A stretch of 64,000 nucleotides of DNA from Escherichia coli phage Wa28: sequence record LC788710.1; one strand, written 5' to 3'. Below, one piece after another: positions 28,634 to 60,269 of the stretch. Numbering within the stretch: position 1 is the stretch's first letter; the number at the start of each line of letters is the position of its first letter. Both the position numbers and the translations under genes were made by a program. The notes under the pieces are model-generated. The model saw nothing but the letters and a program-made list of their open reading frames with translations, was not told where the DNA came from and made no database searches.

Positions 28634-30298
28634 TTATGCAAAGAATTTACCGTTTTTGAAATCAATCAAAGTACGTTGCCCGTTTGCATAGGTAATTAAA
28701 TGCGTTTGCGTCCAGCTTGACGCGCCCACGTTGTAGCCCATATCAAGGGAACCAGCAACGCCAGCGGTATAAACGCCGCCGTAAATGCTAGCCGTGTGAG
28801 TGTGACCAGTGTTAAGGCGTCCCAACTTTTTAAACTGCTTAGGATTGCCCCGACTGCCGTTAATGCCATTGTGACCATGTACGCCGCATTCAATGCCAGC
28901 GATTTTAAAGGACTGGTCAGTAGTCAAAAAAATGGCGTTAAATTCGCATCCTGCAACGTTTCTAAGCGCATAATCTAACACGTTAAAGGTATCATCCTTT
29001 TCAGCAATAGCGGCGTAAATCGCAGCGTTTAGACGGTGATACAGTTCCGCGTTTGCGGGATCATCTTTAATGTTTGCGTTACGATCATCTAACCAGCGGG
29101 ATAATGCTAAATCATGGTTAGATTCCACAATGATTGTTTGACTAAAATCACGTTCCATAGATTCTAATACGCGTCCAGTATCGATAAGATCATCAATAAC
29201 TTTATCACGTCCGGCGGCGTATTGTTTCGCAAGGAATACACCACTAGCGCGGTTATGATGGTTACGCGATGTAAAATCATGCACGTCATGAATAAATTGA
29301 TATTTCGGTTTAAGAATATCAAGCAAGCTGTTTTCACTAGCCCATGAAGCGACGGCGCAATCATCATCTAATTTTTCGGCGTGAATATCGCCATATTGCA
29401 AGCCTAGAACATGATCGGACGTTTCAAAACATCCGGTAGGCATAGCGCAAACATTCAAATCATAGAACATTCCGCTTTCATCCATTGTTTCAATCTGGCG
29501 AGCATAAAATTCGCCGTCGTCGTCGAACTCTACCAGCAAAGCGCCATAATTATGTAAAGCCTCAGCTTTTTGACCTGCTTTCTGCTGAATGTAGTTTTTA
29601 AGCGTAGCCGTTCCGGTTGAATACATACGGCACACTACTTCACCTTTTAACGCTGGCACACTTTCAGCGGTAATTTTAGCGTGACCAATTGCCAGACCTT
29701 CAATATTTAAAGCCGTGGCGGTTTCTGCGAATCCTGAAAGCGGGTAATCTGCCGTTGGTAAAACGTTAATTTCAGCCATGAAAGCAAAGCGGCGGTTATT
29801 TAAAAATACGTTTTTATCACAAACATATTTATCAAATGCGGGATCGTATTTAATACCGTTTGCCCCTTCCCCGTTCTGAAATCCGTTTTTGTTGTAAATG
29901 AATTTGCTAACAAGTAATTCAGCGCCGCAATATTCAGCGAATTTTTCCAGACTTGCTAAAAAGTTTTTATGCGGGAAAGTATTATTTTGAATCGACGTTA
30001 GAATAAAACGGCGACCGGACTTAACTTCCCATTGCTCAACGGTGCTAGAAACAATTCCCGCCGCCTCTGGGCGATCATCGTTTTTAATCGCCTTTTCGGC
30101 TTTTGCCGCTTTCGGTTTCGCTGGTTTATTTGCTTCCAGCCAGTCACAAATTGCGGTCGAATGTTTCGGCGTACCATAAACAGCTTTTGAAATATCGTCG
30201 CAAACTTCCAATTTAGTAGCGCGTAAACGCTTACCGTAGAAGTTAAAATCTGCGGCCATTTTCAAAATTTGAGCTTGTTTTTCTGCGGAAATATTCAT
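28634..30298 (-). CDS. A1: A1-like pre-early protein with metallophosphoesterase motifs
   Basis: 554 aa; GDIH and GHTH metallophosphatase-like motifs; synteny with dmp and A2-like gene. Confidence 0.6.
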   Translation of the reverse strand: MNISAEKQAQILKMAADFNFYGKRLRATKLEVCDDISKAVYGTPKHSTAICDWLEANKPAKPKAAKAEKAIKNDDRPEAAGIVSSTVEQWEVKSGRRFILTSIQNNTFPHKNFLASLEKFAEYCGAELLVSKFIYNKNGFQNGEGANGIKYDPAFDKYVCDKNVFLNNRRFAFMAEINVLPTADYPLSGFAETATALNIEGLAIGHAKITAESVPALKGEVVCRMYSTGTATLKNYIQQKAGQKAEALHNYGALLVEFDDDGEFYARQIETMDESGMFYDLNVCAMPTGCFETSDHVLGLQYGDIHAEKLDDDCAVASWASENSLLDILKPKYQFIHDVHDFTSRNHHNRASGVFLAKQYAAGRDKVIDDLIDTGRVLESMERDFSQTIIVESNHDLALSRWLDDRNANIKDDPANAELYHRLNAAIYAAIAEKDDTFNVLDYALRNVAGCEFNAIFLTTDQSFKIAGIECGVHGHNGINGSRGNPKQFKKLGRLNTGHTHTASIYGGVYTAGVAGSLDMGYNVGASSWTQTHLITYANGQRTLIDFKNGKFFA

Positions 30299-30406
30299 AA
30301 CTAAATCAACTCCTATAAAGGGATAAATATTAATACTGGCAATATTGCCAAATATAACGCCTTGCCTGAAGTGAGGACAATTTAAAAGGCGTTATAATTT
30401 GCAATA

Positions 30407-30652
30407 TTATTCTAGAATTGGCATAAGACTAGAACTAAAACCGCAACTAATAGCCAGCGTTAAAAATATAATCGCTAGATATTTTTGTTTATTAGCTTGA
30501 CGTTTAAACATATCAGCGGCATAAGCTGAATTAATGCCGATAATAGAGATTATATATTTGCCGTAATTAAATATAAATATAGCGGCAACTATAAATAAAC
30601 CTAAAATAAACGCTTCACTAGGGAAGAAAATCATTTTAATAACTCCGGTCAA
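30407..30652 (-). CDS. small integral membrane protein
   Basis: 81 aa, three hydrophobic segments. Confidence 0.4.
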   Translation of the reverse strand: MTGVIKMIFFPSEAFILGLFIVAAIFIFNYGKYIISIIGINSAYAADMFKRQANKQKYLAIIFLTLAISCGFSSSLMPILE

Positions 30653-30664
30653 AGGGAAATTATA

Positions 30665-30682
30665 GCGGGGAATATTCCCCGC
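30665..30682. terminator. perfect 18-bp palindrome GCGGGGAATATTCCCCGC, likely bidirectional terminator
   Basis: read directly, just downstream of A2-like stop. Confidence 0.5.
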
Positions 30683-30692
30683 TAATTAGAAT

Positions 30693-31109
30693 TTATTCAC
30701 CTGCGGCCTGTTTTACTTCCTCCGCTACGCCTAACAATTGCGCTACGGCGTCCAGCGTTTCCAGTTTAGCACTTTCAAGGCTTGCCAGATCGTCGGCATC
30801 TTTTACGATACCTGAATCAATGGCGTGTTTAGCGATGACGCGCACATAGTGAGCTTTACGAATTGAGCTACCGCCGCCAACTTTACGCGGTTTATCGCTT
30901 TTCTGGTATGCTTTTGCGCTTGTCAGTTTAGAACGTACAGAAACAGGACTTGCAGCGCCAACGGCGGCGGCAATTTCTTTCAGGCCGTCACTGTTAGCAA
31001 ATTCAATTCCGCTTTTAGCGACCATTTCAGAATACATAGAAACAGCTTTTTCGGTGTTTTCTTCGTTCCAAGAGAATTTTGCTGTTTTTTCGGTTTTAAC
31101 GTTAGACAT
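30693..31109 (-). CDS. A2: A2-like pre-early DNA-binding protein
   Basis: 138 aa; position upstream of A1-like gene. Confidence 0.45.
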   Translation of the reverse strand: MSNVKTEKTAKFSWNEENTEKAVSMYSEMVAKSGIEFANSDGLKEIAAAVGAASPVSVRSKLTSAKAYQKSDKPRKVGGGSSIRKAHYVRVIAKHAIDSGIVKDADDLASLESAKLETLDAVAQLLGVAEEVKQAAGE

Positions 31110-32099
31110 AATTTAATACTCCATTCAATTATTAATTAAGGGATTATGATTAACTAATGTTAATCCATATATTCCCCATATTTCAGGGGAATATAAAGTT
31201 AGCACTAATTAGCTAATAGCTTGCCATTTATCATCTTTCTGAATGATCTTTACAACGTCGCCGGATTTAACGCGAACATTATAAATTGGCTTGCCGTGGT
31301 TACTGCGTTCCGTTTCCGCAAAGACCGCTTCAATTTTATCGAAAGGATCTAGCGCCGCACCTTTAATACGTTCGGCTTTTCCAGTTAATTCATCCGTTTT
31401 AGTAACGAAAGGAATAAATACAGATTGACCTACTTTCGGCGCGGTAAACTTCCCCGCCGTTGTAGTCTGGCCTTTCGTTTCCGTCTTGCCGTCCTACGAG
31501 ATAAATAATAGGTTATTCCCGAAAATGGCGCAAGCGTATTTTTGTAAAGAAACGTAAAGACAAACGCCACCGCACCACGTCCAGCGGCGCACTAAATTTA
31601 ATGAAACGGGCGCGCGAATAACACCAAAACAACCATTTTAGCAAGTAATTTTTTCATTTATATCTGCTCTAGGGTACTTGACAAAATCTAAAATCCTCGT
31701 GGTGAGGTTTTCTCGGTGTACCCCTTATGATTGCCTATCTTTTCCTTTGAGGCGCTTAGAATCGCTTACAGAGCGTTTTAGACCCTGTTAATAACTTATA
31801 CAAAAAGCAAAAATGAAATTTAATGAGTTATCCACTTGATTTTTCAAAAAAGTATTTTCTGCTGTTATTTTTCATTGACAAATAAGTTTAGACGTGCATT
31901 GATTGGTTAGCAGACTAACAATCGCTAGGATGATAATCACGCTGGTGGATTGTAGCAGCCGAAACAGTTAGCAGACTATTAATCATGGAAAATCTCATTA
32001 GCCAACTAACTATTTCATATTATATAATATACTTATAAATTAAAGAGAAATAATAACTATAAGAAACTATCGGCTAAGTGAGAACCACTATCATTTAAC

Positions 32100-32220
32100 T
32101 TATGCACAAAGTTATCCACAGCACTTTTTGACTTGACACAATAAGCAACATTTTGGCGACTTATCCACAGACTTATATACAGGTTATCCTACTGTATAAA
32201 TATACAGGGTAGAATGGTAG
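32100..32220. repeat. left copy of ~110-bp imperfect inverted repeat with DnaA boxes and LexA-box-like palindrome
   Basis: TTATCCACA at ~32111 and ~32161; CTGTATAAATATACAG at ~32200; reverse complement matches 36180-36320. Confidence 0.7.
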
Positions 32221-32456
32221 CAGTAACAACCGCAATCAAATTTAAGCGGTCTAAAACGCGCTACACGGCGTTTTCTCACTGCTGCCCTTATTATAATAAA
32301 GCCTTGTGTACGCTTACAGAGAGCTAGAAATAGAAAACGCGCGGTTATCATAAAAACAGGCAGTAAGCAAGAAATAAAAAACCTTTTCTTTTTTCTTGCC
32401 CCTAGCGAACAATTATATATATCATTCACTCACCGATTAACGAGGGAGACAAAGAA

Positions 32457-58827: not shown

Positions 58828-58903
58828 TGGTGGAGTCACTCAGAATTGAACTGAGTTCCACTGCTTGCAAGGCAGTAAGTTTAACCAAATAACCTATGAC
58901 CCC
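58828..58903 (-). tRNA. tRNA-Ala (anticodon TGC)
   Basis: cloverleaf; G3:U70 wobble; anticodon loop CTTGCAA. Confidence 0.65.
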
Positions 58904-58908
58904 GAATT

Positions 58909-58987
58909 TGGTGGAGAATAAGAGATTCGAACTCTTCTGATATCCTCGGTGCAAGCGAGGTGTCCACTCCAAGCAGACCCATTCCCC
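58909..58987 (-). tRNA. tRNA-Ala-like (anticodon TGC), atypical
   Basis: 79 nt; G3:U70; anticodon loop CTTGCAC; G8G9 and 7-nt variable loop are non-canonical. Confidence 0.45.
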
Positions 58988-58996
58988 AAAATCTTT

Positions 58997-59225
58997 AAGT
59001 TTACTAAGGCTATTAGCTCGGTGTGCGTATTACCCTCAGACATTAGCCAGTAGAGGATAACCGCTCTTCACAAACCCGATACACTATTCAGTTGCCGCTG
59101 AATCTAGTGGACTAATCTAGAACTTATTGCAAAGTATCCCCCGCCATTAAGGGTCTACTTGCAATTGTGCTTTTTGGCAGCCAGTCCTAGGTCGAGCTAA
59201 TACCTTAGTGAACTTTGATGAGGAT
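58997..59225 (-). ncRNA. candidate structured RNA (~230 nt) closed by a ~24-bp terminal helix
   Basis: 58997-59022 pairs with 59200-59225 (2 mismatches); no ORF; promoter at 59250-59278 fires into it; leader hairpin GATGAGGA-gaaa-TCCTCATC. Confidence 0.35.
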
Positions 59226-59249
59226 TTCTCCTCATCAATTTATATAAAT

Positions 59250-59278
59250 ATTATAACAAGAAATTAAGCATCAAGCAA
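59250..59278 (-). promoter_or_regulatory. T5-type sigma70 promoter (TTGCTT-17-TATAAT) driving structured RNA and downstream tRNAs
   Basis: conserved architecture; -35 overlaps stop of upstream ORF. Confidence 0.6.
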
Positions 59279-59630
59279 GTACATTTTTAGCGATTTCTTG
59301 TATTTCCTTAACGTCACTAACGAAAAGGTAATCAGAGCTTCCAGAGTGCATACTCTGCATAACCACACCATCCTCTGGTGCATCTTCTTTCAAAGTAATA
59401 CCTAACCAGAACTCGGCAAAACTAGGTGTTACCTCACCTTGACTTGCCTTGAATACATCGGCTTCTGTGATCTCCTGACCAGTAGAGAGTCCCATGTACG
59501 GTACGTTCAGATCAATATCTTTGTAAAACTCAGCTAGATCTTGTTCGAAGTCCCAACCTTTAGAGATAGCGAACTCCATTGTTACATGACCGAAATAGCC
59601 TTGAACCTTGCTTGATAATTGCATTTGCAA
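59271..59630 (-). CDS. hypothetical acidic protein
   Basis: 119 aa. Confidence 0.4.
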   Translation of the reverse strand: MQMQLSSKVQGYFGHVTMEFAISKGWDFEQDLAEFYKDIDLNVPYMGLSTGQEITEADVFKASQGEVTPSFAEFWLGITLKEDAPEDGVVMQSMHSGSSDYLFVSDVKEIQEIAKNVLA

Positions 59631-59726: not shown

Positions 59727-59804
59727 TTGGTGGATTGCCTGGGATTCGAACCCAGAACTGACGGATTAAAGGTCCGCTACTCTTATCCGGTTGAGCTAGC
59801 AATC
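59727..59804 (-). tRNA. tRNA-Lys (anticodon TTT), C33 variant
   Basis: cloverleaf with perfect acceptor; anticodon loop CCTTTAA. Confidence 0.5.
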
Positions 59805-60269
59805 CAATTTTTCTACTAATAATTTAAAAGCATCTAGTACAGGTACTTCAAACCATTCCCCGGATACTCTGTAGTCTTTGAGAAGATTATGTAACTCTTT
59901 CTCCGTACGTCTTTTATCTGACGAAAATCTGAAATGGTGTAGCTTGTAGTCTCTATTAGGTGAATAGGTTTGATAACTTGCTAACCTCTCATTTACATCT
60001 ATAGTCATACCTATTTTATACATGCCTGGCCATGCGGGATTACCGATTACATATACAAAACCTTCCGTTATAGGTATTTTATGTTCTCTTTTGTATTTTA
60101 AGAGATTTAAAGCTGCCATTCGATAACAGAATTTAAATTCTGAAGTTTTTAACTTACCCTCTTTACCAGAAATTTCATTATATTTGCTCATATAAGCTCT
60201 TATAAGCTTATCATCTATAATAAAATTATCAGGAAGGTTTAAGGCAGCTAAAACTTTATTAATTAGCAT
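59796..60269 (-). CDS. T5orf172-domain (GIY-YIG-like) putative homing endonuclease
   Basis: 157 aa; VYVIGNPAWPGMYKIGMT...YQTYSP motif; paralog of 63369-63860. Confidence 0.55.
   Translation of the reverse strand: MLINKVLAALNLPDNFIIDDKLIRAYMSKYNEISGKEGKLKTSEFKFCYRMAALNLLKYKREHKIPITEGFVYVIGNPAWPGMYKIGMTIDVNERLASYQTYSPNRDYKLHHFRFSSDKRRTEKELHNLLKDYRVSGEWFEVPVLDAFKLLVEKLDC

What the first reader, a model, noticed from the sequence alone, without database searches (positions are those of the whole stretch)
58997..59278. Promoter-driven ~230-nt structured RNA candidate embedded in the tRNA cluster
There is no ORF on either strand here, yet a consensus T5-type promoter (59250-59278) fires into it. 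The transcript would begin with a perfect hairpin GATGAGGA-gaaa-TCCTCATC (GNRA tetraloop). The segment 58997-59022 (aagtttactaaggctattagctcgg) is reverse-complementary to 59200-59225 (gtcgagctaataccttagtgaactt), closing a ~24-bp terminal helix around ~180 nt with internal palindromes (ctag-N9-ctag, ttgc...gcaa). This is not a tRNA. It could be a 6S-like RNA polymerase decoy, a stable phage RNA like the unexplained T4 species 1/2 RNAs, or a processing scaffold for the downstream tRNAs.
Basis: seen in the sequence. Interest (0 to 1): 0.75.

Follow-up and report, generated by a model that had tools for sequence, protein, structure and literature searches.

The report
Conserved pseudoknotted stable RNA of T5-like phages
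The flagged segment is a real, promoter-driven, highly structured non-coding RNA gene, the counterpart of phage T5's long-annotated but functionally unexplained "RNA2H" stable RNA, and comparison across five phage lineages shows a conserved double-pseudoknot fold not found in any RNA family library.

Summary
On the minus strand a T5-type promoter (-35 59278-59273, -10 59255-59250) is followed by a 10-bp GAAA hairpin (59238-59215). A 23-bp terminal helix (59214-59193 with 59020-58999) encloses about 170 nt and ends 9-11 nt before a tRNA.

It is not new as a gene. The window is a T5-like Epseptimavirus, and the T5 record AY543070 annotates the orthologue (79% identity) as "rna2H, stable RNA with unknown functions" behind "promoter P13b".

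What I add is a structure. Homologues exist in five Demerecviridae lineages: T5/Eps7-like, Klebsiella Sugarlandvirus, phage Eos, an Enterobacter/metagenome lineage and Aeromonas Shenzhenvirus. They support P1 with an invariant AAGG/CCUU plus purine-bulge island, hairpins P2-P5, and two pseudoknots joining the 5' strand to the P3 and P4 loops. In the curated alignment 95.9% of cells pair and 33 of 44 pairs show double-sided changes, against 3-6 in slid controls.

No Rfam family matches. It is not a tRNA, tmRNA, 6S-like RNA or a relative of T4 species 1/2.

Function remains unknown. It is most likely a stable RNA released from the 5' end of an early transcript that acts as a protein-binding or decoy RNA. 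T5 mutants deleted for the locus are viable.

The parts
59250..59278 (-). Sigma-70 early promoter of T5 type: -35 TTGCTT (59278-59273), 17-nt spacer, -10 TATAAT (59255-59250). The inferred start is near A59243.
   Evidence: Sequence. 90.8% identical to the feature annotated 'promoter P13b' in T5 AY543070. An equivalent TTGC(T/C)N-17-TATAAT promoter directly precedes the RNA in the lineages whose upstream sequence is held; the metagenome contig L041 shows only the -10. The start site is inferred, not mapped.
59215..59238 (-). Leader hairpin at the 5' end of the transcript: a 10-bp stem with a GAAA loop, abutting P1 with no spacer.
   Evidence: (I7). The stem is kept with different sequence in the Enterobacter/metagenome lineage (GAUGGUAA.../...UUUACCAUC). 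It is absent in the Klebsiella, Eos and Aeromonas lineages, where P1 starts a few nt after the promoter. Some relatives carry a ~100-nt insert in its loop.
59193..59214 (-). P1 5' strand: P1a AGUUCACUAAGG (59214-59203) and P1b UAUUAGCUCG (59202-59193). AAGG (59206-59203) is invariant in all five lineages.
   Evidence: 13 of 21 P1 pairs show changes on both sides across lineages.
59183..59187 (-). 5' strand of pseudoknot PK1 (GGACU). It pairs with AGUCC in the P3 loop (59113-59109).
   Evidence: Partner sequences by lineage: GGACU:AGUCC (window/T5), GAGCC:GGCUC, GAGUC:GGCUC and GAGUC:GACUC (Klebsiella), GAACC:GGUUC (Eos, Enterobacter), GACG:CGUC (Aeromonas). All 5 pairs covary and 97% of cells pair; 100% pair in the MAFFT-only alignment.
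59175..59179 (-). 5' strand of pseudoknot PK2 (UGCC, then A). It pairs with GGCA in the P4 loop (59096-59093).
   Evidence: Partner sequences by lineage: UGCC:GGCA, ACCA:UGGU, AAUCA:UGAUU, UGCCA:UGGCG. 3 of 5 pairs have changes on both sides.
59167..59174 (-). Conserved A-rich junction AAAAGCAC between PK2 and P2.
   Evidence: Invariant A and AC positions in the five-lineage alignment.
59126..59165 (-). P2, a variable hairpin of 40 nt here, 18 nt in T5 and 13 nt in Eos.
   Evidence: All 4 closing pairs covary.
59103..59121 (-). P3 hairpin UCUAG-AUUAGUCCA-CUAGA. Its loop carries the PK1 partner.
59087..59102 (-). P4 hairpin UUCAG-CGGCAA-CUGAA. Its loop carries the PK2 partner.
   Evidence: All 5 stem pairs covary across lineages.
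59065..59086 (-). Conserved junction J5, UAGUGUAUCGGGUUUGUGAAGA. The AGU.UA..G positions are invariant.
   Evidence: A competing helix with the P4 3' half is possible in some lineages only.
59025..59064 (-). P5, a variable hairpin of 'Eps7 type' with a conserved CUGGCUAAUG loop. T5 and Eos carry a different hairpin module at this position.
   Evidence: helix 7: 96% of cells paired, with many G.U pairs that would be mismatches on the other strand.
58997..59020 (-). P1 3' strand: CGAGCUAAUA (59020-59011), bulged G (59010), CCUUAGUAAAC (59009-58999), plus UU (58998-58997). CCUU is invariant and the bulge is always a purine.
   Evidence: The ends annotated for T5 RNA2H correspond to window 59202 (5') and 59008 (3'). 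That is a staggered cut at this island leaving the bulged G plus a 2-nt 3' overhang.
58988..58996 (-). A/U-rich spacer AAAGAUUUU between P1 and the next tRNA (58987-58909).
   Evidence: That release happens here by RNase P and/or RNase E is inferred from general tRNA-operon processing, not shown.

Best explanation
This is the Epseptimavirus orthologue of the phage T5 gene rna2H. It encodes a non-coding RNA transcribed by host RNA polymerase from a strong early promoter, as the first element of a transcription unit that continues into tRNA genes.

The RNA folds into a compact core. A 23-bp terminal helix (P1) brings the two ends together. Four hairpins (P2-P5) branch from it. The single strand following P1 pairs in succession with the loops of P3 and P4, giving two pseudoknots.

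Inferred steps. The RNA is separated from the downstream tRNA by host RNases: RNase P or RNase E in the A/U-rich spacer. It may also be cut by RNase III within P1, at the invariant AAGG/CCUU purine-bulge site where T5's annotated ends lie. It then accumulates as a stable RNA with both ends buried in helices. Its most likely mode of action is in trans, as a high-copy structured ligand (decoy or scaffold) for a host or phage protein during early infection. It would be an accessory function rather than an essential one.

Shown here: existence, conservation, fold, promoter linkage and absence of coding potential.

Taken from annotation or literature: 'stable RNA' and dispensability.

Inferred: the nucleases involved, the exact ends, and trans action on a protein.
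For: Identity:
- The segment (58985-59280) is 100% identical to E. coli phage Shin27, and the segment is 79% identical to T5, where it overlaps 'rna2H: stable RNA with unknown functions' and 'promoter P13b'.

Reality and strength of structure:
- Folding z = -6.7.
- MAFFT-only alignment of 25 sequences: 92.1% of cells paired against 28-43% when partners are slid, and 30 pairs with double-sided changes against 2-10.
- Curated five-lineage alignment: 95.9% paired and 33 of 44 pairs with double-sided changes against 3-6.
- Both pseudoknots covary, including the stepwise series C-G, U-G, U-A among the Klebsiella phages.

Depth of conservation:
- A covariance model built on enterobacterial phages finds the RNA in Aeromonas Shenzhenvirus phages (52 bits, E about 5e-14), again directly behind a promoter and before the first tRNA of the cluster.

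Promoter linkage:
- A promoter directly precedes the RNA in every lineage whose upstream sequence is held.

Ends and processing:
- T5's annotated ends fall on the only sequence-invariant island of P1. They give the bulged G plus a 2-nt 3' overhang, the geometry of an RNase III cut.
- RNase III has a reported role in T4 tRNA synthesis (PMC4810235, refs 47-48).

Dispensability:
- T5 mutant T5-123, deleted for 29191-32442, is viable. The deletion covers rna2H at 31808-31979 (PMC11464382).

Non-coding:
- No ORF. Indels in P2 and P5 are not multiples of three, and substitutions are compensatory.
Against: - No expression or end-mapping data were available here. The experimental basis of the T5 'stable RNA' annotation is unknown to me, and no searchable paper mentions RNA2H.
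- The strict promoter-proximal position in every lineage, with downstream partners that vary between tRNA and ORF, fits a cis-acting leader at least as well as a trans-acting RNA.
- In the core helices G.U cells (27) do not outnumber A.C cells (28), so strand choice rests on P5's G.U pairs, promoter orientation and the T5 annotation.
- Only five lineages were found, so independent evolutionary events are few. The five-lineage alignment was curated with the structure in mind.
- No protein partner, target or ligand is identified. Neighbouring ORFs are of unknown function and are not conserved with the RNA.
Confidence: 0.6

Rival explanations
1. Cis-acting 5' leader. The structured RNA exists to act on its own transcript. 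It might protect the 5' end of the early tRNA/ORF transcript, provide an RNase III processing platform (as the stems around rRNAs or the T7 early sites do), or modify the transcribing polymerase (put-like antitermination). Any stable fragment would be a by-product.
For: - It lies directly behind a promoter in every lineage whose upstream sequence is held, with P1 or a leader hairpin starting within a few nucleotides of the inferred start.
- The downstream gene may be a tRNA or an ORF with its Shine-Dalgarno sequence a few nt after P1.
- The other T5 stable RNAs sit inside operons without promoters of their own.
Against: - A simple hairpin would suffice for 5' protection, yet a ~170-nt double-pseudoknot core with invariant junctions is kept from E. 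coli phages to Aeromonas phages.
- Only one of the several similar promoters in the window is followed by this RNA.
- P1 is too long to act as a switch, and no terminator or sequestered Shine-Dalgarno sequence follows it.
- T5's record lists it as a stable RNA.
Confidence: 0.25
2. tRNA-end mimic. After cleavage at the P1 island the RNA carries a 10-bp helix with a 3' R-CC overhang. The host CCA-adding enzyme completes this to RCCA, so the RNA engages tRNA-handling proteins (RNase P, CCA enzyme, a synthetase, EF-Tu or a tRNA-targeting defence nuclease).
For: - The bulged purine and the following CC are the only invariant residues on the 3' strand of P1, while neighbouring pairs covary.
- T5's annotated 3' end is ...AAUAGCC.
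- The locus is embedded in a tRNA cluster.
- The T5 tRNA region is known to counter a tRNA-cleaving defence system (PMC11464382).
Against: - The next base is U, not A, in all lineages.
- The CC is base-paired to an equally invariant GG in the precursor.
- No T-loop or D-loop motif is present, and neither ARAGORN nor the Rfam tRNA/tmRNA models match.
- The nucleotides flanking the putative 5' cut (G at -1; U, A or C at +1) are not those preferred by RNase P (my own knowledge).
Confidence: 0.1
3. 6S-like decoy of RNA polymerase.
For: Similar size (about 200 nt), high expected abundance, and ends paired in a long helix.
Against: - No match to Rfam 6S models at E up to 10.
- The covariation-supported fold has no large central bubble flanked by long helices. 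It is a multi-branch core with two pseudoknots.
Confidence: 0.02
4. A DNA-level element rather than an RNA: inverted-repeat mobile element, cruciform or origin.
For: A 23-bp inverted repeat flanks about 170 bp. P2 and P5 look modular, and modules appear exchanged between lineages.
Against: - Covariation extends to loop-strand pseudoknots and small hairpins, which have no meaning for duplex DNA.
- P5 contains many G.U pairs on the tRNA-sense strand only.
- There is no presence/absence polymorphism with target-site duplications among 421 near-full-length matches.
- The element has a fixed position behind a promoter.
Confidence: 0.02

Closest known systems
Phage T5 rna2H ('RNA2H, stable RNA with unknown functions', AY543070 31808-31979; also annotated in DT57C)
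   Same: Orthologous locus. It is 79% identical overall, with 100%-identical core blocks. The same promoter (P13b) lies upstream and a tRNA-Ala-type gene downstream, and it scores highest with the covariance model.
   Different: The window's copy has a longer P2 (40 nt against 18 nt) and a different P5 hairpin module. T5's annotated RNA (172 nt) starts and ends inside P1. Whether the window's RNA is cut there is unknown.
Phage T4 species 1 and 2 RNAs (rnaC, rnaD)
   Same: Small stable RNAs of unknown function encoded in a phage tRNA cluster and co-transcribed with tRNAs.
   Different: No detectable homology: the model gives at most 2.8 bits over rnaC/rnaD. The T4 RNAs lie at the distal end of the cluster, not at the promoter-proximal end.
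RNase III-flanked stable RNAs (16S and 23S rRNA precursors; T7 early processing sites)
   Same: A long helix formed by sequences flanking the mature RNA. T5's annotated ends give a staggered cut with a 2-nt 3' overhang.
   Different: Cleavage was not tested. The helix carries a conserved bulge that could equally block RNase III.
Y RNAs / bacterial YrlA
   Same: Ends paired in a long stem carrying a conserved bulged nucleotide, attached to a structured module.
   Different: No Rfam match. The bulge is on the 3' strand. There is no tRNA-like T-arm module. Whether the hosts encode the Rsr partner protein was not examined here.
6S RNA
   Same: Size and paired ends.
   Different: There is no central bubble, there is no Rfam match, and the core is pseudoknotted.

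Membership tests
T5 RNA2H family | Sequence homology to the annotated T5 rna2H gene | tested here: met
   79% identity over 99% of the query (H37). The pairwise alignment has identical core blocks. The covariance model scores 212 bits for the window and 224 bits for T5.
T5 RNA2H family | Same genomic setting: promoter P13b upstream, tRNA downstream, inside the tRNA cluster | tested here: met
T5 RNA2H family | Accumulates as a stable RNA in infected cells | not testable with these tools
   Rests on the wording of the GenBank annotation only. No paper found.
6S RNA | Match to the Rfam 6S covariance models | tested here: not met
   No hit at gathering score or at E up to 10 in the window, T5, Klebsiella or Eos copies.
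6S RNA | Rod-like helix with a large central bubble mimicking an open promoter | tested here: not met
   The covariation-supported structure is multi-branched with two pseudoknots.
tRNA / tRNA-like / tmRNA | Cloverleaf or tRNA-like domain detectable by ARAGORN or the Rfam tRNA/tmRNA models | tested here: not met
   ARAGORN finds 25 tRNAs but nothing in 58988-59243. Rfam gives no tRNA or tmRNA hit there.
tRNA / tRNA-like / tmRNA | 3'-terminal RCCA on an acceptor-like helix | tested here: inconclusive
   A purine followed by CC is invariant after a 10-bp helix, but the next base is U in all lineages and the CC is paired in the precursor.
Y RNA / YrlA | Match to Rfam Y-RNA-type models; Ro/Rsr-binding stem | tested here: not met
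   No Rfam hit. The stem-with-bulge resemblance is only general.
T4 species 1/2 RNAs | Homology to T4 rnaC/rnaD | tested here: not met
   Model R1 run with filters off on the T4 region 70000-74500 gives at most 2.8 bits over rnaC/rnaD and a best score anywhere of 11.8 bits on a short hairpin.
Riboswitch | Known aptamer family plus an expression platform (terminator or sequestered Shine-Dalgarno sequence) overlapping P1 | tested here: not met
   No Rfam match. P1 is 23 bp. No terminator follows on this strand. In Enterobacter phage KKP_3711 the Shine-Dalgarno sequence lies outside P1.
RNase III substrate | Helix of about two turns (20 bp or more) | tested here: met
   13 + 10 bp with one bulge, kept in all lineages.
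RNase III substrate | Cleavage leaving 2-nt 3' overhangs in vivo | not testable with these tools
   Only indirect: the ends annotated in T5 have this geometry.

The most novel reading that the evidence does not exclude
RNA2H is the founding member of an undescribed class of complex-fold phage RNA, defined by a double-pseudoknot core closed by a bulged 23-bp helix. Its activity would be specific: for example a decoy or inhibitor for a host tRNA- or RNA-directed defence or processing enzyme, a CCA-tailed tRNA-end mimic, or a ribozyme. It would have been conserved across Demerecviridae from enterobacterial phages to Aeromonas phages.
Probability: 0.2. Interest if true: 0.8.

Novelty: already known. 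Interest (0 to 1): 0.5.

Why it matters
T5 and its relatives encode a set of small stable RNAs whose roles are still listed as unknown in the T5 genome record. This one turns out to be the most elaborate. It has a roughly 200-nt fold with two covarying pseudoknots, and a sequence-invariant site in its terminal helix. It has been kept behind a strong early promoter in phages of Escherichia, Salmonella, Klebsiella, Enterobacter and Aeromonas, yet it is dispensable in the laboratory.

That combination is typical of RNAs that bind a specific partner and matter only in particular hosts. The T5 tRNA region is already known to carry counter-defence functions.

The structure model gives concrete handles for experiments: pseudoknot and bulge mutants, precise deletion, and pull-down. 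It could also seed an Rfam family, so that the gene stops being overlooked or overprinted with 'hypothetical protein' calls in hundreds of T5-like phage genomes.

Tried and rejected
- Rfam at gathering and permissive thresholds on the window, T5, Klebsiella and Eos copies returned only tRNAs and noise.
- The extra BLAST 'places' in each genome looked like possible paralogues but are only copies of the promoter.
- A search of 5,426 E. coli genomes for a host homologue or long complement found nothing.
- Literature: no paper contains 'RNA2H'. Searches on T5 stable RNAs and T5 transcriptomes gave nothing specific.
- A metagenome scan with a P1-based pattern returned 120 stretches. Eight were true, and only one of those (L041) was a new lineage. 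The same pattern on viral contigs added nothing new.
- The model found no copy in a 40-kb stretch of Pantoea phage AAS21. That stretch holds no tRNA cluster, so this says little.
- Alternative helices. CUAGGACU/AGUUCUAG is confined to the T5/Eps7 lineage. GCAACUG/CGG-GU-UUGY pairs in two lineages but breaks in Eos and is absent in Aeromonas. Both were rejected in favour of P3/PK1 and P4/PK2, which hold in all five lineages.
- The model-made alignment A3 mis-registered P3 and P4 in some lineages. I therefore built a curated N-padded core alignment.
- Strand asymmetry of G.U against A.C in the core was not decisive.
- Neighbouring ORFs gave no functional clue.

Full report
**What is in the window.** The region lies in a cluster of 25 tRNA genes, all on the minus strand. 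Reading the minus strand, the elements follow in this order:
- A promoter: -35 TTGCTT at 59278-59273, a 17-nt spacer, and -10 TATAAT at 59255-59250. It overlaps the stop codon of the upstream 119-aa ORF.
- A perfect 10-bp hairpin with a GAAA loop at 59238-59215.
- A long helix formed by 59214-59193 and 59020-58999. It has a bulged G at 59010 and one C.A mismatch, and it encloses about 170 nt.
- An A/U-rich spacer of 9 nt.
- A tRNA gene at 58987-58909.

No ORF of 20 aa or more lies inside 59054-59263. The transcript folds far better than shuffled sequence (z = -6.7). The generic promoter scan missed the promoter because TTGCTT matches only 3 of 6 positions of the textbook -35 hexamer. The promoter is 90.8% identical to a feature annotated as a promoter in T5.

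**Identity.** The segment 58985-59280 is 100% identical to E. coli phage Shin27, an Epseptimavirus of the Demerecviridae. 539 phage records match the segment, and 421 of them match over at least 80% of its length. In the T5 record AY543070 the orthologous stretch (79% identity) is annotated 'promoter P13b', followed by misc_RNA 'rna2H, RNA2H, stable RNA with unknown functions' (172 nt), followed by tRNA-Ala. DT57C carries the same annotation (H36). The gene is therefore already on record, although most relatives leave it unannotated or place 'hypothetical protein' calls over it. No paper in the searchable library contains 'RNA2H'. The other BLAST 'places' in each genome are only copies of the promoter, not paralogues of the RNA.

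**Relatives.** BLAST, pattern scans and a covariance model (R1) found the RNA in five lineages:
- T5/Eps7-like Markadamsvirinae (many).
- Klebsiella Sugarlandvirus.
- Phage Eos.
- An Enterobacter-phage/metagenome lineage (L041 and KKP_3711).
- Aeromonas Shenzhenvirus, the most distant (52 bits, E about 5e-14).

Between T5 and the window the core blocks are 100% identical, whereas two hairpins (P2 and P5) are replaced outright. Eos combines a Klebsiella-like P1 with a T5-like P5, so these hairpins behave as exchangeable modules.

**Structure.** On the plain MAFFT alignment of 25 sequences, my proposed structure consists of P1, P2-P5 and two pseudoknots.
- 92.1% of cells pair, against 28-43% when the 3' partners are slid by 1-3 columns.
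- 30 pairs have changes on both sides, against 2-10 in the slid controls.
- The covariation score is 0.33, against at most 0.12.

MAFFT and the model-made alignment mis-register P3 and P4 by one column in some lineages. I therefore parsed each sequence into structural segments and passed an N-padded core alignment of 22 sequences from all five lineages to the same counter.
- 95.9% of cells pair.
- 33 of 44 pairs have changes on both sides, against 3-6 in the slid controls.
- The covariation score is 0.535, against at most 0.108.

PK1 pairs the strand after P1 with the P3 loop. The partners are GGACU:AGUCC in the window, GAGCC:GGCUC, GAGUC:GGCUC and GAGUC:GACUC in Klebsiella phages, GAACC:GGUUC in Eos and Enterobacter phages, and GACG:CGUC in Aeromonas phages. 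PK2 pairs the next few nucleotides with the P4 loop: UGCC:GGCA, ACCA:UGGU, AAUCA:UGAUU and UGCCA:UGGCG.

Two competing helices were rejected. One exists only in the T5/Eps7 lineage. The other pairs well in two lineages but breaks in Eos and is absent in Aeromonas.

Caveats on the structure:
- Five lineages mean few independent events.
- The second alignment was curated with the structure in view.
- In the core, G.U cells (27) do not outnumber A.C cells (28). Strand assignment therefore rests on the many G.U pairs in P5, the promoter orientation and the T5 annotation.

The full dot-bracket structure for 59243-58988 is given.

**Invariant features and ends.** Most of P1 covaries, but AAGG (59206-59203) and CCUU (59009-59006) are invariant. 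The bulge next to them is always a purine: G in four lineages and A in Aeromonas. Also invariant are GG between the two pseudoknot strands, an A-rich tract ending in AC before P2, and AGU.UA..G in the junction after P4.

T5's annotated RNA begins at the first base of the upper 10-bp part of P1 and ends at ...AAUAGCC. Translated to the window, that is 59202 to 59008. It amounts to a staggered cut at the invariant island that leaves the bulged G plus a 2-nt 3' overhang. This is the signature of RNase III on a helix of about two turns. The same end can also be read as a tRNA-like R-CC terminus awaiting an A. I cannot tell whether the annotated ends were measured.

A simpler route needs no RNase III. 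In the Klebsiella, Eos and Aeromonas lineages P1 starts 2-10 nt after the inferred start site. In the T5/Eps7 and Enterobacter lineages a covarying leader hairpin stacks directly on P1. RNase P cleavage at the downstream tRNA, or RNase E cleavage in the spacer, would then release an RNA with both ends buried in helices.

**Context.**
- A TTGC(T/C)N-17-TATAAT promoter directly precedes the RNA in the lineages whose upstream sequence is held; the metagenome contig L041 shows only the -10.
- The downstream partner is usually a tRNA. In Aeromonas phages it is the first tRNA of the whole cluster.
- In Enterobacter phage KKP_3711 and in two T5-like contigs an ORF with a Shine-Dalgarno sequence follows within a few nucleotides.
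- The neighbouring ORFs in the window are of unknown function or belong to a family whose relatives include homing endonucleases (the orthologue in phage IrmaTschudi is annotated 'putative homing endonuclease'). The upstream ORF is absent at this position in T5.
- The model finds only one copy in the 64-kb window.
- T5 mutant T5-123, deleted for 29191-32442, grows on E. coli. The deletion spans rna2H, so the RNA is dispensable under laboratory conditions (PMC11464382, with coordinates).

**What it is not.**
- No Rfam family matches any of the copies.
- ARAGORN sees no tRNA or tmRNA.
- The fold has no 6S-type central bubble.
- The model finds nothing in the T4 rnaC/rnaD region.
- No E. coli genome holds a similar or long complementary sequence.
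- A DNA-level reading (mobile element, cruciform) does not account for loop-strand covariation or for strand-specific G.U pairs.
- A riboswitch reading is unlikely given a 23-bp P1 and no expression platform.

**Best explanation and rivals.** I am confident (about 0.95) that this is a genuine structured non-coding RNA gene orthologous to T5 rna2H. I think it probable (about 0.6) that it is released from the 5' end of the early transcript by host RNases and persists as a stable RNA with its ends sequestered in P1. I think it only plausible (about 0.3) that it acts in trans as a high-copy ligand or decoy for a host or phage protein.

The main rival (0.25) is a cis role at the 5' end of the transcript. 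The invariable promoter-proximal position favours that rival. The elaborate conserved core and its presence behind only one of many similar promoters count against it. A tRNA-end mimic (0.1) is kept alive by the invariant purine-CC. The 6S-like and DNA-element readings are essentially excluded.

**Novelty and value.** As a gene it is already known, annotated in the T5 type genome. The new parts are as follows; they are not in Rfam or in any paper I could search:
- The covariation-supported double-pseudoknot architecture.
- The invariant bulge island that coincides with the annotated ends.
- Conservation out to Aeromonas phages.
- The modular P2 and P5 hairpins.

This makes the unresolved question of what the T5 stable RNAs do directly testable, but it does not answer it.

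Noticed in passing
window 62228-62156, 61127-61003, 60794-60694, 57893-57749, 57748-57642 (minus strand): These are orthologues of the other RNAs that the T5 record lists as stable or tRNA-like RNAs of unknown function: RNA3 (97% identical), RNA2 (90%), RNAIV (94%), RNA1 (81%) and RNAI (91%). RNAIII gave no BLAST match, although about 125 nt of unassigned sequence remains before tRNA-His.
   Followed up: partly
window 58909-58987 (minus strand): ARAGORN calls this gene tRNA-Ala(UGC), but it is 79 nt long and scores only 38 bits against the Rfam tRNA model. It sits next to a canonical tRNA-Ala(UGC) at 58828-58903 (59.6 bits). One related record labels its orthologue 'tRNA-OTHER'. Its true identity and function are unclear.
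   Followed up: no
L004:649-757, L011 about 300-365, L006 upstream of 600, L021, L026: In several T5-like phages the GAAA loop of the leader hairpin is replaced by an insert of about 100 nt between GAUG and CAUC. The insert has its own long-range inverted repeat (AGAUAUCAG/CUGAUAUC). It may be another small structured RNA module.
   Followed up: no
L006:803-835: In Salmonella phage KKP_3831 the tRNA-Ala after the RNA is reduced to a ~30-nt remnant (5' start joined to ...CACCA). Another T5-type promoter follows it.
   Followed up: no
L177:495-680; L027 and L035 just 3' of the RNA: In Enterobacter phage KKP_3711 the RNA is followed directly by a Shine-Dalgarno sequence and a Cys-rich ORF of about 60 aa instead of a tRNA. 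Two T5-like contigs also have an ORF there.
   Followed up: partly
window about 56409-56346, 54026-53998, 47391-47338, 44408-44339, 62872-62797, 60687-60623 (minus strand): This is a family of closely similar T5-type early promoters (TTGCTT-17-TATAAT with A/T-rich flanks) spread through the tRNA/early region. Only the one at 59278-59250 is followed by this RNA.
   Followed up: partly
window 59087-59097 with 59069-59077 (alignment A2 columns 121-127 with 138-146): A possible alternative helix forms between the 3' half of P4 and the conserved junction J5 (GCAACUG / CGG-GU-UUGY). It is 98% paired in the T5/Eps7 and Klebsiella lineages, but it is broken in Eos and absent in Aeromonas. It could be chance G.U-rich pairing or an alternative conformer.
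   Followed up: partly
window 59799-60269 (minus strand): This 157-aa ORF carries a T5orf172/MUG113 domain (weaker matches to phage families annotated as endonuclease or homing endonuclease; orthologue in IrmaTschudi annotated 'putative homing endonuclease'). Its 3' end overlaps the start of tRNA-Lys(UUU).
   Followed up: no
window 59040-59049 (P5 loop) and homologues: The P5 loop CUGGCUAAUG is conserved in the 'Eps7-type' P5 module across three lineages while its stem covaries. T5 and Eos carry an unrelated hairpin at the same place. The partner of this loop, if any, was not found.
   Followed up: no
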